From: a virus | Lineage: Duplodnaviria; Caudoviricetes | IMG/VR virus record: IMGVR_UViG_3300049172_000088 | Location: 19,686-83,685 of that record | Reading direction: 5' to 3' (one strand) | DNA length: 64,000 bases | Shown here: positions 19,261 to 33,710 of the stretch, in pieces | How positions within the stretch are numbered: position 1 is the first letter of the stretch | Layout of the letters: each line of letters starts with the position of its first letter | Made by a program: the position numbers and the translations under genes | Notes under the pieces: model-generated | What the model saw: only the letters and a program-made list of their open reading frames with translations | Database searches by the model: none | Told to the model about the DNA's origin: nothing

Positions 19261-19473
19261 TCAGGCGGCCTGTTGAGCGGGGCGGATGTACGGGGCGAGG
19301 AGCGCGGCCAGGCGAGTGCACTGCTCCTCGGTGAGGGGCGGATCGTGCTCGCCGTCGCGCCAGCCGGCCTCGAAGGCTTGCTGCGGCGTGGTGCAGATCT
19401 CCTGCCTGCCACGCCCCGCCGCACCGAGACGCGCCTTGCCGTACCGCGCCGGGCCTGGGTCGTTAGTGGTCAC
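19261..19473 (-). CDS. Small hypothetical protein carrying an in-frame GGY-NN unit in its 5' part
   Basis: Coupled GTG start; TPQQAFEAGW..EHDPPLT. Confidence 0.55.
   Translation of the reverse strand: MTTNDPGPARYGKARLGAAGRGRQEICTTPQQAFEAGWRDGEHDPPLTEEQCTRLAALLAPYIRPAQQAA
19404..19457 (-). ncRNA. Solo GGY-NN guide-like unit A
   Basis: Nine 5-nt-phased GGC/GGT/GTC triplets ending in GGCAGGC; 54 nt, the modal array unit length. Confidence 0.7.
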
Positions 19474-19892
19474 GCCGCGTCCTCACCGACGTCGCGGCGG
19501 ACCATGGCGTAGAACTCGGAGAACTGCTCGTAGCGACGCCGGAGGGCCTTCCATTCGCGCTCCATGTCCTTGAGCAGGAGCTGCGCCGTGAACGGGTCCG
19601 TGGTCACCTTGTCCACGGGCTCGTACACGTGGCCCTTCTCCGACCGAACGGCGTGGAACGCGCGCACGCTCTGCTCGGGGTTCTTCTCGTCGGCCTCGCG
19701 GTAGACGATCCGAACCGACCGGATGAGCTGGTGCGCCTGCTCGCGTCGCCACGCCTCGCCGGCGACCGCGTCGTTCCACTCGAACCGGTCGTGCAGCGGG
19801 TGCTGCTCGTCGCGAGCTTCGTCCACCACCAGGGCGGGCGTGAGCTGCGCGTGCCGGTCGTAGATGGCCTGGAGCTGCTCTCGGAGACTCAC
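19470..19892 (-). CDS. Partner protein translationally coupled to the RAMP-like gene
   Basis: LTPALVVDEARDEQHPLHDRFEWND..AGE.WRREQA.QLIR; GTGA overlap. Confidence 0.7.
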   Translation of the reverse strand: MSLREQLQAIYDRHAQLTPALVVDEARDEQHPLHDRFEWNDAVAGEAWRREQAHQLIRSVRIVYREADEKNPEQSVRAFHAVRSEKGHVYEPVDKVTTDPFTAQLLLKDMEREWKALRRRYEQFSEFYAMVRRDVGEDAA

Positions 19893-20521
19893 GAGCTGAG
19901 GACCTCCACTTCGCGGGTCGGGTCGATCTTGTAGGTGCCGAAGTCGCCGTCCCGCTCCGGCCGCCACTCGCCGACGCCGACGCCCATGCCGCCAGCGTCG
20001 ATCAGCGACAGGACAGAGCCGCGGGTGAGGGCGGAGGTGACGTAGGTGACTTCCAGGACGGCGGACCACTCGCGGAACTCGGGCCGGTACCTGAGGTCGG
20101 TGCCGCCGCGGCCGACGGTGACGACGTCCTCGCGCATCTGGGCCTCGCCGTCGATGCGGGTGAGGGCGCGGCCGTCGTCGCCGACCTCGCCGCCGAAGAA
20201 CAGGAACTGCTTGAGGGCGGTCATGGTGACGCCGGAGTAGAAGCGGGCGCCGCCGATGGTGGCGGCCTTGAACGCGATCGACGGGAAGCCGGGCGAACCG
20301 TCCTTGAGCCGGTAGTAGGCGGCCTCGTACTCGGCGTGCGGGTCCTTCGGCTGCTTGGGCGACTTGCGGCCCTGCATCGCGTCGAGCATGGCCTTTTTGG
20401 CCTTTTCGGAGAATCTGTGGACGATCAGAGGCGTTGTGCCCACGATCGGGACAGAGATCGTTTCCGCCGCGATCCGGTCAATCTGGACGATCGCGTCGTC
20501 CGACTTTCGGGCAGCACACAT
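19889..20521 (-). CDS. RAMP/Cas7-like RNA-binding protein (Vipr-like), 210 aa
   Basis: GAAAGG RBS; N-terminal strand I.GTTPLIVH; GFPSIAFKAA; C-terminal Gly-rich loop GGMGVGVGEWRP..DG.FGTY typical of RAMP folds; adjacent to array. Confidence 0.7.
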   Translation of the reverse strand: MCAARKSDDAIVQIDRIAAETISVPIVGTTPLIVHRFSEKAKKAMLDAMQGRKSPKQPKDPHAEYEAAYYRLKDGSPGFPSIAFKAATIGGARFYSGVTMTALKQFLFFGGEVGDDGRALTRIDGEAQMREDVVTVGRGGTDLRYRPEFREWSAVLEVTYVTSALTRGSVLSLIDAGGMGVGVGEWRPERDGDFGTYKIDPTREVEVLSS

Positions 20522-20553
20522 TGCGCTAACCTTTCGATGAGAAGTGAGTGATG

Positions 20554-20585
20554 GGGTCCGGACGCCGTGCAGGGCGACCGGACCC
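20554..20585 (-). terminator. Hairpin between array 3' end and RAMP-like gene
   Basis: GGGTCCGG/CCGGACCC stem plus inner CGCC/GGCG. Confidence 0.5.
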
Positions 20586-20604
20586 TTCTTCATGCGTGGG
20601 CCGC

Positions 20605-21638
20605 GCCTGCCATGACGGGCCATGCCGAGACGTGCGGAGCCGCAACAGGACGAACCGCGCCTGCCCTGCCAAACCCAGCCGTGCCTAGTCCCGCCGTGAC
20701 ATGCCGGACCGCACCACACCGAGCCATTCCTGCCACGCCAAGCGACGCCAAGACCCGCCCTGACAAGACGAGCCGTGCCGAGCCATGCCTGCCGTGCCGC
20801 GCGATGCTGTGACGGACCTAGACGGACCGCGCCAAGACCCGACTGCCGGGCCACGCCTTGACTAGCCGAGACCAGACCCGCCATGTCCTGCCTGCCGTGC
20901 CATGCGGAACCTAGCCGGGACACACCACAACAAGCCCCGCCTTGCCGCGCCTGACAAGCCGGGCCGCACCATGCGGAGCCGAGCGGAGACTTGCCACGCC
21001 ACACCGTGCCTGCCGGACCTGGCCATGACTGGCCGCGCCTCGCCGGACCTCGCCTCGCCACGCCTGCCGAACCACGCCGTGCCCGAACGTGACAAGCCCT
21101 GCACAGAACAACCGCGCCTGCCACGCCAAGCCACGCCAAGCCCGACCGGGACCTGACTGGACATGCCGCGCCATGCCATGACTGCCAAAGCTGGCCGTAC
21201 GGCGCCACGCCGTGACTAGCCCTGACCCGCCAAACCGGGCCTGCCGAACCGTGCGATGCCGAACCAAGCCCGGACACGCCCCGCCGAACCCCGCCTGCCA
21301 CGCGAAGCCATGACCAGCCGCGCCGCGACGAGCCCTGCGAAGCCATGCCTGCCAAGCCAGGCCACACCCTGCCTGGCCGAACCGCGACCTGCCACTCCGC
21401 GCCTGCCAAGACAAGCCAAGCCCCGCCGAGCCGAGACCCGCCGGACCGAACCACGCCTGCCATGACGGGCCAAGCCGTGACCTGCCGGGACTTGCCCAGC
21501 CTTGCCTGCCTCGCCATGCCTGAACTAGCCCAGCCCGAACATGCCCCACCCCGCCAGGACTGCCTCACCACACCAAGCGGAACCCCGCCGAGCCCGGCCA
21601 CATCTCGCCTGGACCGGCCAAGCCTGACCATGCCTGCC
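20605..21638 (-). ncRNA. GGY-NN periodic guide-RNA-like array: 18 units, 19 GGCAGGC-type delimiters
   Basis: Delimiters start at 20605, 20659, 20728, 20787, 20841, 20890, 20949, 21008, 21062, 21116, 21180, 21239, 21293, 21347, 21401, 21455, 21504, 21558, 21632; all spacings (49-74) equal 5n+4; units are a constant triplet plus a variable dinucleotide. Confidence 0.9.
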
Positions 21639-21760
21639 ACGTTGATCGTCAGAAGGCTCTTCCTGGCGTTGCAGTTGCGGCACCGGCCGCGCCAGCTCTC
21701 GTTCGAGGAGTAGCACTTGCCACAGGTCCACGGCGGCTGCTTCGGCGGCTGCGGCGTCAC
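21639..21760 (-). CDS. RanBP2-type zinc-finger peptide (frame stays open into the array)
   Basis: WTCGKCYSSNESWRGRCRNC fits W-x-C-x2-C-x3-N-x6-C-x2-C; GTGA overlap with cro; true end uncertain. Confidence 0.6.
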
Positions 21761-32450: not shown

Positions 32451-32489
32451 GCTGCGACGGTACGCCTGCCGTTGGAAACACAGAAGAGC

Positions 32490-32519
32490 GGCCCCCGCCC
32501 TCCGGAGAGGACAGGGGCC
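32490..32519 (-). terminator. Possible terminator after lysis genes
   Basis: GGCCCC/GGGGCC and CCTC/GAGG stems followed by T-rich run on minus strand. Confidence 0.35.
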
Positions 32520-32544
32520 ACCAGCACGGCCCTCACGCCGTGGT

Positions 32545-32739
32545 CTACTCGGGCTTGTTCGGCACCCTCCACGTCGCCCAGCCAACCGTGGCCAGCGCCG
32601 CAGCGAACGCGCCCGCGAGCATGCCGAACTCCTCGCCGGTGACCGCGGCGTCCTGAAGCACCTGCGGCAGCATGGCCACCACGGCAGCGACGCCGGCACC
32701 GCTCCCAGCGATGACGGCCTTACGGATACGAGCGAACAT
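32545..32739 (-). CDS. Holin-like two-TM protein
   Basis: RKAVIAG...; ends TWRVPNK; downstream of endolysin. Confidence 0.7.
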   Translation of the reverse strand: MFARIRKAVIAGSGAGVAAVVAMLPQVLQDAAVTGEEFGMLAGAFAAALATVGWATWRVPNKPE

Positions 32740-32832
32740 AACCCCTCCCGCGAGGTCGGATTCTTGGACCTGCCGGGCGGTATGCCTGGACAGGGGTCGA
32801 ACTGGAAAGAGTTGCTTTCCAGTTCGGAAGCT

Positions 32833-33603
32833 TCAGCTGACCGGGCGCTCCCACGTGGCCCTCCAGGTGGCCGGGCCGACGATGCCGTCGTCATCGAGCG
32901 GCCAGCCGTGCACGGTGCTGTCCCGCTGGAACGCGCTGCAGACGTCGCGGGATCGCGGCCCGTACGAGCCGTCGGGGATCAAGTCCCAGCCGCGGTCTCG
33001 CATCTGCGCCTGCCAGCTGTAGACGTCGGCGCCGCTCATGGTCGGTGGGCACCTGAGGAGGCGGCCAGGGAACGGCGGCGCCTTCTCCGGCTGCCCGCCA
33101 GGGCGGGGCGCTCCGGCCTTCACCCAGGCGTACAGCCGCGAGCCTGGGCAGTCGGTGGCGTAGCCGTCGCGATGCCCCTTGATCTCCGGCCCGGCGCCGC
33201 CCTCGGCGCGCAGCCACTCGATCGCGTCGCGGATGCCGTGCAGCATGGTGTCGGGCGGGACGACCAGGCCCGAGTTGCCGACCAGGCCGAGCACCGCGTA
33301 GTGGCCGGAGTTCAGGCCGGCCCCGTTCGCCGCAGGAAGGCGGTTGAGGCCGCGGCCGACGAACACCTTCCGGTGCGGGCAGACCGCGGCGGTGTAGCCG
33401 AAGTCCAGCCAGCCCTGGTTCATGTGGGCCTTCTGGATTCCGCGCACGGTGGCGAAGCAGAGGTCATGGTCTTCGGCCAGCTTGGGATCGACCCGCGAGC
33501 CGACATAGTGGATCTTGCAGCCGCGTGTCCGGGACAGCCGCTCGTACGCTCCTTTCGGCGCGAGAGCCTTCCATTCCTTGCGCGTGATGAGGTCAATGGC
33601 CAC
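32833..33603 (-). CDS. Endolysin: N-acetylmuramoyl-L-alanine amidase plus peptidoglycan-binding domain
   Basis: ITRKEWKA; KIHY; Q..HM..GWLDFGY; IKGHRD...TDCPG; WQAQM..RGW...DG.YGP...DGIVGPATW. Confidence 0.9.
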   Translation of the reverse strand: MAIDLITRKEWKALAPKGAYERLSRTRGCKIHYVGSRVDPKLAEDHDLCFATVRGIQKAHMNQGWLDFGYTAAVCPHRKVFVGRGLNRLPAANGAGLNSGHYAVLGLVGNSGLVVPPDTMLHGIRDAIEWLRAEGGAGPEIKGHRDGYATDCPGSRLYAWVKAGAPRPGGQPEKAPPFPGRLLRCPPTMSGADVYSWQAQMRDRGWDLIPDGSYGPRSRDVCSAFQRDSTVHGWPLDDDGIVGPATWRATWERPVS

Positions 33604-33643
33604 GTCAGCGTCCTCTCCGAACGGCTAGGCTGAGGGTGTTCGT

Positions 33644-33710
33644 GGTTCGGCACGGCCTGGTGCGGTCCGGCGTGTCTAGGCTGGTCATGGCTTGGCACGT
33701 CCCGGCAGGC
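33644..33710 (+). ncRNA. Solo GGY-NN guide-like unit B
   Basis: Thirteen 5-nt-phased GGY/GTC triplets ending GGCAGGC, in the intergenic gap upstream of endolysin, antisense to late genes. Confidence 0.8.

What the first reader, a model, noticed from the sequence alone, without database searches (positions are those of the whole stretch)
19360..33710. Decoding rule visible inside the window: NN = codon positions 1-2, wobble base skipped
Seen: take a unit's dinucleotides as the reverse complement of the GGY strand and insert one free base after each. Three units then align in register to this phage's own adjacent genes. Solo B matches endolysin 33487-33522 at 8/12 dinucleotides, solo A matches 19360-19389 at 7/10, and array unit 21558-21631 matches the zinc-finger gene 21668-21709 at 8/14. 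Chance is roughly 1/16 per position. In all three cases the guide is complementary to the coding strand and the skipped base is codon position 3. Inference: target recognition is a gapped NN-x-NN-x code that is blind to synonymous escape mutations, so it effectively targets protein sequence.
Basis: partly seen in the sequence, partly recalled or inferred. Interest (0 to 1): 0.95.

Follow-up and report, generated by a model that had tools for sequence, protein, structure and literature searches.

The report
Phage VIPR guide array, known code

Summary
Observation confirmed. The minus strand 21631->20609 parses without error into 18 units of 9-14 NNGGY pentamers, each closed by a 4-mer (mostly AGGC). 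There are two solo units in the window and a third outside it. The three reported matches (8/14, 7/10 and 8/12-14) exist, are in codon phase, and are each the unique window-wide best hit of their unit. Their closeness to the unit is far beyond chance (local shuffle P 2.5e-4, 1.4e-3, 5e-5; Fisher 2e-7 over all five edge or solo units).

The 210-aa protein beside the array is a homologue of the SUSP1 Vipr protein (PDB 36pp, profile E 2.7e-13) with a Cas7/Csm3 fold. VIPR vrRNAs (GGY/NN repeats), the 1-nt skip rule, wobble-position skipping, staggered arrays and solo vrRNAs are all in three bioRxiv preprints of 2026.

New here: one internal guide (20840->20791) matches 10/10 dinucleotides, always in frame (VAIVGYGANP), in at least 120 high-GC viral contigs, all 80 examined being prohead protease genes. 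The phage's own protease differs at that site. The three adjacent matches are near-cognate self sites below the published 80% threshold. For solo B, rival endolysins match as well or better. This scan has already found VIPR systems on other DNA.

The parts
22036..22065 (-). sigma-70-like promoter upstream of the early operon (HTH, Zn finger, array, vipr, vap)
   Evidence: TTGAAA-18-TAAACT, 9/12. This is a consensus match only.
21760..22029 (-). Cro/CI-type HTH regulator gene
   Evidence: HTH_31 E 8.5e-10, HTH_3 E 3.9e-7
21632..21760 (-). small Zn-finger ORF (W-x-C-x2-C-x3-N-x6-C-x2-C). It has no stop before the array and is not conserved with vipr in relatives.
   Evidence: Zn_ribbon_RanBP E 0.0046 (below cut-off); no homologue beside vipr in 14 related loci.
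21668..21709 (-). near-cognate self site of the first array guide (codons SSNESWRGRCRNCN of the Zn-finger ORF), 8/14 NN
   Evidence: local P 2.5e-4
20605..21635 (-). staggered vrRNA array: 18 guides of 9-14 NNGGY pentamers, each closed by AGGC/AGTC/AGGA
   Evidence: The same delimiter is seen in arrays of relatives.
20791..20840 (-). internal guide whose decoded pattern (GT GC AT GT GG TA GG GC AA CC, 1-nt skip) has a perfect natural target in prohead protease genes of other phages
20554..20585 (-). hairpin closing the array, followed by RBS and the vipr start
   Evidence: MFE -31.8 kcal/mol, z -1.96
19892..20521 (-). vipr gene: 210-aa RAMP (Cas7-like) protein, phrog_4652
   Evidence: PDB 36pp SUSP1 Vipr, profile E 2.7e-13; single sequence E 6.7e-5, G-loop aligned; pLDDT 94.9; Csm3/Cas7 E 3e-6
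19473..19892 (-). vap-like accessory gene (140 aa, phrog_15946), start overlaps the vipr stop
   Evidence: tblastn finds it next to vipr in all 14 related loci examined; viral hypothetical clusters only.
19404..19457 (-). solo vrRNA A (10 pentamers + AGGC), at the place where close relatives have their array
19360..19389 (-). near-cognate self site of solo A (TPQQAFEAGW in an orphan 70-aa ORF), 7/10 NN
   Evidence: P 1.35e-3; the ORF has no homologues.
33637..33710 (+). solo vrRNA B (13-14 pentamers + AGGC), antisense to the flanking late genes
33717..33749 (+). 15-bp hairpin with U-rich tail after solo B (3' cap or terminator of the plus-strand vrRNA)
   Evidence: MFE -43.9 kcal/mol, z -3.39, 0 of 200 shuffles as good
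33481..33522 (-). near-cognate self site of solo B in the endolysin gene (GCKIHYVGSRVD...), 8/14 NN
   Evidence: P 5e-5; the homologous site of relatives scores up to 10/14.
32836..33603 (-). endolysin gene
   Evidence: phrog_1493 E 4e-47. PG_binding_1.
59544..60479 (-). the phage's own Peptidase_S78 prohead protease. Its allele (LQVRLFEAGP) does not match the 20840 guide.

Best explanation
The region is a VIPR (Viral Interference Programmable Repeat) system of a temperate actinobacterial phage. Its early operon reads HTH regulator, Zn-finger ORF, an 18-guide 'staggered' vrRNA array, vipr (a Cas7-like RAMP), a vap-like partner gene, and a solo vrRNA. A further solo vrRNA lies beside the endolysin gene and a third lies outside the window. 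By homology with the SUSP1 system, Vipr protomers coat each vrRNA one per pentamer, bury the GGY triplet and present the NN dinucleotide. The NN series pairs with double-stranded DNA while every third target base is skipped. This silences transcription of rival phages and cannot be escaped by synonymous (wobble) changes. That part is inferred from the published system and was not tested here. Shown here: the protein homology, the array grammar, one guide with a perfect in-frame natural target in the prohead protease gene of many other high-GC phages, and the absence of any self site at 80% NN or more. That last point is an inference, supported only for solo B.
For: Profile of the 210-aa family hits PDB 36pp 'SUSP1 Vipr protein' at E 2.7e-13. 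The single sequence gives E 6.7e-5, with the SUSP1 GGY-contact residues R138/W178/R179 aligned to R146/W186/R187. R146 and R187 are invariant in 60 homologues. The AlphaFold model (pLDDT 94.9) matches Csm3/Cas7 RAMPs at Foldseek E 3e-6. The array parses into 18 units of 9-14 NNGGY + AGGC, within the published 9-16 YNNGG range and fitting the 1-nt 'staggered' architecture. Array and vipr co-occur in Mycobacterium phage BobaPhett, Gordonia phage UmaThurman and 12 IMG/VR contigs, and the 140-aa partner is always adjacent. Guide 20840 has at least 120 exact 10/10 hits in IMG/VR. All 80 fetched read VAIVGYGANP in frame, with 37 wobble variants. The two target ORFs checked are Peptidase_S78 genes. 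The phage's own allele is divergent. Near-self matches are adjacent and in phase. The solo B decode hits the homologous endolysin site in 27 of 31 relatives, up to 10/14 against a null maximum of 8.
Against: No expression, processing or binding data exist for this phage. Only 1 of the 6 guides scanned in public collections found an exact target, at full length or in part. No target at 80% NN or more over the full guide was found for solo A, solo B or the first array guide. The self endolysin allele (8/14) is mid-range among homologues (6-10/14), not specially depleted. Internal units lack the structured 3' tail of the type II vrRNAs that were tested experimentally. The VIPR type and the identity of the partner gene with published vap1-6 could not be checked because the supplements are not held.
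Confidence: 0.92

Rival explanations
1. The three adjacent matches are chance, produced by free choice of register in GC-rich coding DNA. No decoding rule is visible in the window.
For: Scores alone are unremarkable against window-wide shuffles (P 0.035, 0.175, 0.035). Two of five edge or solo units show nothing. Self-genome hits at 60% NN or more are not significantly enriched for wobble phase (17/34 against 37.5% for shuffles).
Against: Each match is the unique best hit in 128,000 positions and lies within 150 nt of its unit. Local shuffle P values are 2.5e-4, 1.35e-3 and 5e-5, with Fisher 2e-7. Only the 1-nt skip and the antiparallel complement give adjacent hits. The same rule gives at least 120 perfect in-frame hits for another guide.
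Confidence: 0.02
2. The near-cognate adjacent sites are functional self targets. Partial pairing lets VIPR tune the phage's own Zn-finger gene, ORF70 and endolysin (autoregulation, for example of lysis timing).
For: Adjacency and codon phase. Solo B lies antisense in the endolysin 5' region. VIPR represses transcription from either strand in the published system.
Against: Only 57-70% of NN match. The authors report that perturbing NN pairing abolishes silencing and that no self hit reaches 80%. The solo B decode fits rival endolysin alleles as well as or better than the self allele.
Confidence: 0.08
3. The array is a protein-binding RNA sponge or scaffold for another factor (the upstream RanBP2-type Zn finger, or a TRAP-like ring reading about 11 GGY triplets per 54 nt), not a guide array.
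For: The Zn-finger ORF matches the RanBP2 consensus weakly (E 0.0046). From my own knowledge, ZRANB2-type fingers bind GGU in single-stranded RNA. The modal unit holds 11 GGY triplets.
Against: The Zn finger is absent beside the arrays of all 14 relatives, whereas vipr is always there. Unit lengths vary from 9 to 14 pentamers. The NN series of one guide spells a conserved protease motif in other phages, which a sponge would not need.
Confidence: 0.03
4. The array is protein-coding: the 623-aa ORF 21760..19889 fuses Zn finger, repeats and vipr.
For: The frame stays open through the array. Public records annotate such arrays as hypothetical proteins.
Against: Conservation is at 5-nt period on the nucleotide level. 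Unit lengths are 5n+4 (49-74 nt) and are mostly not multiples of three. The translation is W/R/G-rich low-complexity sequence. vipr has its own RBS and ATG after a hairpin. The openness is expected at about 5% from the few possible stops in NNGGY text.
Confidence: 0.02

Closest known systems
VIPR systems (Vipr RAMP protein + vrRNA); experimental exemplars are the type II systems of Escherichia phage SUSP1 and a Pseudomonas fulva prophage (bioRxiv 10.64898/2026.04.26.720920 and .720927; PDB 36pp)
   Same: Homologous Vipr protein with conserved GGY-contact residues. vrRNAs of 9-14 NNGGY repeats with hypervariable NN. An adjacent small accessory gene. Phage-borne. The 1-nt skip rule with the skip at the wobble position. 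A target in an essential gene of other phages. No self site at 80% NN or more.
   Different: Actinobacterial host range (70% GC). 18 guides lie head to tail with only a 4-mer between them, instead of about 100-nt vrRNAs each with a pseudoknot tail. The array lies upstream of vipr inside the early lytic operon. The type (I-VII) could not be assigned.
Staggered vrRNA arrays (fig. S18 legend of 10.64898/2026.04.26.720920)
   Same: [quoted passage not shown] Here every unit is 5n+4 nt, closed by AGGC, which is a pentamer sharing one base with its neighbour.
   Different: Only the figure legend could be read. Processing sites have not been mapped in this phage.
Solo (orphan) vrRNAs of satellites and SUSP1-family phages (bioRxiv 10.64898/2026.10.15.759431)
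   Same: Stand-alone guides away from the array. Self-match is lower than match to rivals in the published cases. Solo B has its own terminal hairpin.
   Different: Here the phage keeps vipr. The solo guides sit directly beside the phage's own mismatched copy of the sequence they decode, a linkage I did not find mentioned in the parts of the three papers I read or term-searched.
Class 1 CRISPR-Cas backbone (Cas7/Csm3 filament on crRNA)
   Same: RAMP fold (Foldseek E 3e-6, TM about 0.5). One protomer per repeat of the guide. Thumb-induced periodic base flipping.
   Different: No CRISPR repeats or spacers are seen in the window. Periodicity is 5 nt on the guide and 3 on the target, instead of 6 and 6. 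Guides are genome-encoded, not acquired.

Membership tests
VIPR system | Vipr protein: minimal RAMP homologous to SUSP1 Vipr | tested here: met
   profile E 2.7e-13 to PDB 36pp; phmmer E 6.7e-5; Csm3/Cas7 fold E 3e-6 on a pLDDT 94.9 model
VIPR system | GGY-binding residues of thumb and G-loop (SUSP1 R138, D177, W178, R179) | tested here: met
   alignment: R146, E185 (conservative for D177), W186, R187. R146 and R187 are invariant in 60 homologues.
VIPR system | vrRNA of 9-16 YNNGG/GGYNN tandem repeats with conserved GGY and hypervariable NN | tested here: met
   18 units of 9-14 pentamers; all 16 dinucleotides are used. Solos have 10, 13-14 and 12 pentamers.
VIPR system | vipr accompanied by a vap accessory gene | tested here: inconclusive
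   A 140-aa partner (phrog_15946) is syntenic in all 14 relatives. Its identity with published vap1-6 cannot be checked because no supplement is held, and it has no Pfam match.
VIPR system | natural targets obey the 1-nt skip rule, mostly in coding DNA with the skip at the wobble position | tested here: met
   Guide 20840: at least 120 exact hits; 80/80 fetched are in frame as VAIVGYGANP; the two ORFs checked are Peptidase_S78 genes. Five other guides gave no exact hit.
VIPR system | no self target at 80% NN match or more | tested here: met
   the best self scores are 8/14, 7/10 and 8/14, and the rest are 6 or fewer
VIPR system | structured invariant 3' tail capping each vrRNA (type II) | tested here: not met
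   Internal units are separated by 4 nt only. Hairpins occur only after the array and after solo B. This is compatible with the published staggered architecture, so it argues against type II, not against VIPR.
VIPR system | vrRNAs expressed, bound by Vipr, and able to silence a matching DNA target | not testable with these tools
   Needs sRNA-seq, pull-down and reporter assays.
CRISPR-Cas (class 1) | CRISPR array of direct repeats with unique spacers | tested here: not met
   no repeat-spacer array in the window; only the pentamer array was found
CRISPR-Cas (class 1) | adaptation genes cas1/cas2 and further cas genes nearby | not tested
   Only ten neighbouring ORFs were scanned. None is a cas gene.
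TRAP-like ring protein binding site | fixed number (11-12) of triplets spaced by 2-3 nt, plus a TRAP-family protein | tested here: not met
   Units carry 9-14 pentamers. No such protein was found among the neighbours.

The most novel reading that the evidence does not exclude
Solo and edge guides are kept physically linked to the phage's own mismatched ('immune') allele of the gene they silence in rivals. This would be a guide-plus-resistant-allele cassette that behaves like a poison-antidote or homing module. Recombinants that take the guide without the linked allele would silence themselves, and rivals could be rescued only by acquiring the whole cassette. An alternative, wilder version is that new guides are born from neighbouring sequence. 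Either would explain why 3 of 5 edge or solo guides here have their best genome-wide near-match within 150 nt. I did not find this linkage mentioned in the parts of the three VIPR preprints that I read or term-searched.
Probability: 0.3. Interest if true: 0.6.

Novelty: already known. Interest (0 to 1): 0.25.

Why it matters
The decoding rule itself is no longer news. VIPR, its 1-nt skip code and the wobble-skipping logic were published as preprints in April-October 2026 with biochemistry, cryo-EM and phage experiments.

The value here is confirmatory and descriptive. The rule can be read off a single actinophage genome. VIPR extends to Streptosporangiales-type prophages, mycobacteriophages (BobaPhett and its relatives) and Gordonia phages, where the arrays are currently annotated as hypothetical proteins. 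One guide has a clear natural target, a conserved motif of the prohead protease of more than 120 other high-GC viral contigs. That fits the inter-phage warfare model and gives a ready-made test pair for laboratory strains.

The only new element is the close linkage between guides and the phage's own mismatched copy of their target. It deserves a systematic test across the published loci.

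Tried and rejected
1. My first idea was a TRAP-like or RanBP2-finger RNA-binding array. I dropped it when the Zn finger proved non-syntenic and the flanking protein proved to be Vipr.

2. Pfam on the 210-aa and 140-aa proteins gave nothing. PHROGs gave only 'unknown function' families.

3. Exact scans gave 0 hits for the following:
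- Solo B pattern: 12 dinucleotides in viral contigs and genome contigs; 10 dinucleotides in genome contigs and metagenome contigs.
- First array guide (14 dinucleotides) and solo A (10), in viral contigs.
- Guides 20727 and 21179 (11 each), in viral contigs.
- Guide 21238 (11), in metagenome contigs.
These scans allow no mismatch, so targets at 80-95% NN would be missed.

4. All 21 guides were scanned with mismatches. The material was 45 related loci, five complete or partial relatives (213 kb) and 120 protease-bearing loci (1.04 Mb). Only solo B (endolysin) and guide 20840 exceeded the shuffled null.

5. ORF70, which contains solo A and its near-match, has no homologue, so the 'rival allele' idea could not be tested for solo A. 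The same holds for the Zn finger.

6. Replication of the adjacency effect in relatives was weak. 3 of 47 units had local P<0.01 against 0.5 expected. One of the three matched sites holds an in-frame stop, and coding phase was not established for the others.

8. tblastn of a target protease against isolated phages found only relatives of about 35% identity. The targeted phages are known only as IMG/VR contigs.

9. The codon-phase tally of self-genome hits against shuffles was not significant.

Full report
WHAT IS IN THE SEQUENCE

The window is 70% G+C phage DNA. The whole record is one 83,685-bp virus contig, and the window is bases 19686-83685 of it. On the minus strand between 21631 and 20609 the text is strictly five-periodic. 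A dynamic-programming parse finds 18 units of 9-14 pentamers NNGGY. Each unit is closed by a 4-mer (AGGC in 15 of 19 delimiters, AGTC three times, AGGA once), and there is no other insertion or deletion. All 16 dinucleotides occur at NN.

Isolated units of the same grammar lie at three places:
- 19457->19404 (minus strand, solo A);
- 33637-33710 (plus strand, solo B, followed by a 15-bp hairpin with z -3.4);
- outside the window at genome 11759->11693 (solo C).

The gene order on the minus strand is as follows:
- a promoter-like site (22065->22036);
- a Cro/CI-type HTH gene (21760-22029);
- a small Zn-finger ORF (from 21760);
- the array;
- a hairpin (20585->20554);
- a 210-aa gene (19892-20521, phrog_4652);
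- a 140-aa gene whose start overlaps that gene's stop (19473-19892, phrog_15946);
- solo A.

CHECK OF THE OBSERVATION

I scanned the whole window on both strands. The three reported matches exist with the stated scores, and each is the single best hit of its unit among about 128,000 positions:
- Unit 21631 against 21709..21668 scores 8/14 (codons SSNESWRGRCRNCN of the Zn-finger ORF).
- Solo A against 19389..19360 scores 7/10 (TPQQAFEAGW).

All three are in codon phase, so the skipped base is codon position 3.

The scores alone are not extreme against window-wide shuffles (P 0.035, 0.175, 0.035). The location is. I shuffled the order of the dinucleotides and scanned only the 250 nt of non-array flank. 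The observed local scores are then reached with P 2.5e-4, 1.35e-3 and 5e-5. Two further edge or solo units (the last array unit and solo C) show nothing (P 0.90, 0.62). Fisher's combination over all five is 2e-7.

Skip lengths of 0, 2 or 3 bases give no adjacent hit, and neither do 'reverse only' or 'complement only' decodings. The 17 internal units have no hit above the null inside the window.

WHAT IT IS

blastn found the pentamer array in other actinophages, always beside a homologue of the 210-aa protein. It lies directly upstream of it in Mycobacterium phage BobaPhett and relatives, and directly downstream in Gordonia phage UmaThurman. In those records the arrays are annotated as hypothetical proteins.

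The protein family is large: more than 3,000 members, all 'hypothetical'. A profile of 60 members hits one solved structure, PDB 36pp 'SUSP1 Vipr protein', at E 2.7e-13. The single sequence hits it at E 6.7e-5, with the G-loop aligned. An AlphaFold model (pLDDT 94.9) matches Csm3/Cas7 RAMP subunits of type III CRISPR complexes (Foldseek E 3e-6).

The name led to three bioRxiv preprints of 2026. They describe VIPR (Viral Interference Programmable Repeat) systems as follows:
- A minimal RAMP protein, Vipr, coats a vrRNA made of 9-16 YNNGG repeats.
- It sequesters each GGY and presents each NN.
[quoted passage not shown] - Targets are rival phages and satellites.
- There are seven types, 'staggered arrays with overlapping vrRNAs' whose units overlap by one nucleotide, and solo vrRNAs.
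- No self hit reaches 80% NN match.

The SUSP1 residues that grip GGY (R138, W178, R179) align with R146, W186 and R187 here. R146 and R187 are invariant in the family.

The 5n+4 unit length with an AGGC junction fits the staggered architecture, and the same junction is found in every relative I parsed. The 140-aa gene is next to vipr in all 14 relatives. It is therefore the accessory (vap-like) gene, although I could not match it to vap1-6 because the supplements are not held. The Zn finger and the 70-aa ORF are not conserved with the system.

AN INDEPENDENT TEST OF THE RULE IN THIS PHAGE

I scanned exact decoded patterns in public collections. Five guides gave nothing. The internal guide at 20840->20791 decodes to GT GC AT GT GG TA GG GC AA CC.

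All 80 fetched sites read VAIVGYGANP in the same frame, with 37 different combinations of wobble bases. They sit in the conserved context ...HRGD-VAIVGYGANP-.T on contigs of 57-76% G+C. The two target ORFs I checked are Caudovirus prohead serine proteases (Pfam Peptidase_S78 E 1.9e-24; phrog_80, head maturation protease). Two of the targeted contigs are the same ones recovered through endolysin homology, so they are relatives of this phage.

The phage has its own S78 protease (59544-60479). At the aligned site it reads LQVRLFEAGP, so it is not a target. This is what the published model predicts: a guide aimed at an essential, conserved coding motif of competitors, read at codon positions 1-2.

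WHAT THE THREE ADJACENT MATCHES MEAN

At 57-70% NN they are below the 80% threshold used by the authors. The authors also report that disturbing NN pairing abolishes silencing. They are therefore unlikely to be functional self targets.

For solo B I fetched 31 related endolysin loci. In 27 of them the best hit of the guide is the homologous site. Scores range from 6 to 10 of 14: L006 reads GVKIHYMGARVD and L017 reads GVKIHYTGGRED, both 10/12 over the core. The phage's own allele scores 8/14, and the shuffled null maximum is 8. The guide thus spells the family motif GVKIHYTGA(R/S)VD and seems aimed at rival endolysin alleles. No perfect target is present in the collections. The self allele is mid-range, not specially depleted.

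For solo A and the first array guide the neighbouring ORFs have no homologues, so the same test was impossible.

Why guides should sit next to the phage's own copy of their target is not explained by what I read in the preprints. There are two possible readings. One is linkage of a guide with a mismatched 'immune' allele. The other is origin of guides from local sequence. I could not separate them.

Replication in relatives is weak: 3 of 47 units had local P<0.01, and coding phase could not be shown convincingly for them. I did not check it.

REJECTED READINGS

- Chance is excluded.
- A protein-coding repeat is unlikely. The 623-aa ORF 21760..19889 does stay open through the array. However, the conservation is five-periodic at the nucleotide level, most unit lengths are not multiples of three, and vipr has its own RBS and start after a hairpin.
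- My own first idea was an RNA sponge for the RanBP2-type finger or for a TRAP-like ring. It fails on synteny and on the variable unit length.

VERDICT

Its interpretation is correct, but it restates the published VIPR code, including the wobble argument. The locus is an undescribed member of a known kind. This scan has already met VIPR systems on several other genomes. The modest new points are the protease target of one guide and the guide-to-self-allele linkage, which remains unexplained.

Noticed in passing
outside the window: genome G000 11693-11759, minus strand (window coordinates about -7992 to -7926): A third solo vrRNA (12 pentamers closed by AGGT) lies in an intergenic gap just upstream of a gene start. 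Its decoded pattern has no adjacent near-match (local P 0.62).
   Followed up: partly
window 19889-21760, minus strand: A 623-aa ORF stays open through the Zn finger, the whole array and vipr. This is probably a composition effect, since few stops are possible in NNGGY text. Gene callers annotate such arrays as proteins (BobaPhett gp51, UmaThurman gp40).
   Followed up: partly
L001 3000-3255 (Mycobacterium phage BobaPhett) and L002 2795-3105 (Gordonia phage UmaThurman): Isolated, named actinophages carry the same vipr + vap + AGGC-punctuated vrRNA arrays, all annotated as hypothetical proteins. blastn with the array found 27 Mycobacterium and 5 Gordonia phage records.
   Followed up: partly
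L034-L039 about 7040-7970, compared with window 19404-19457: In the closest relatives (Vipr 62-81% identical) the array follows vap. Here the array precedes vipr and only solo A sits after vap, which suggests a rearrangement or array loss at that position.
   Followed up: no
window 50785-50814, minus strand: A beta-helix-like ORF (50149-51027) reads AEVVSYGANP, a 6/10 NN match to the protease-targeting guide. It is unrelated to the protease and is probably coincidence.
   Followed up: partly
window 19264-19473, minus strand: An orphan 70-aa ORF starts at the vap stop (GTGA overlap) and contains solo A in its first third. It has no homologues among 5.8 billion proteins, so its coding status is doubtful.
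   Followed up: partly
window 24014-25489 (minus) and 22030-22200: There is a serine integrase (Resolvase + Recombinase domains) and an AT-richer divergent control region with CACAGCTT repeats next to the HTH gene. This is the phage's immunity and integration module.
   Followed up: no
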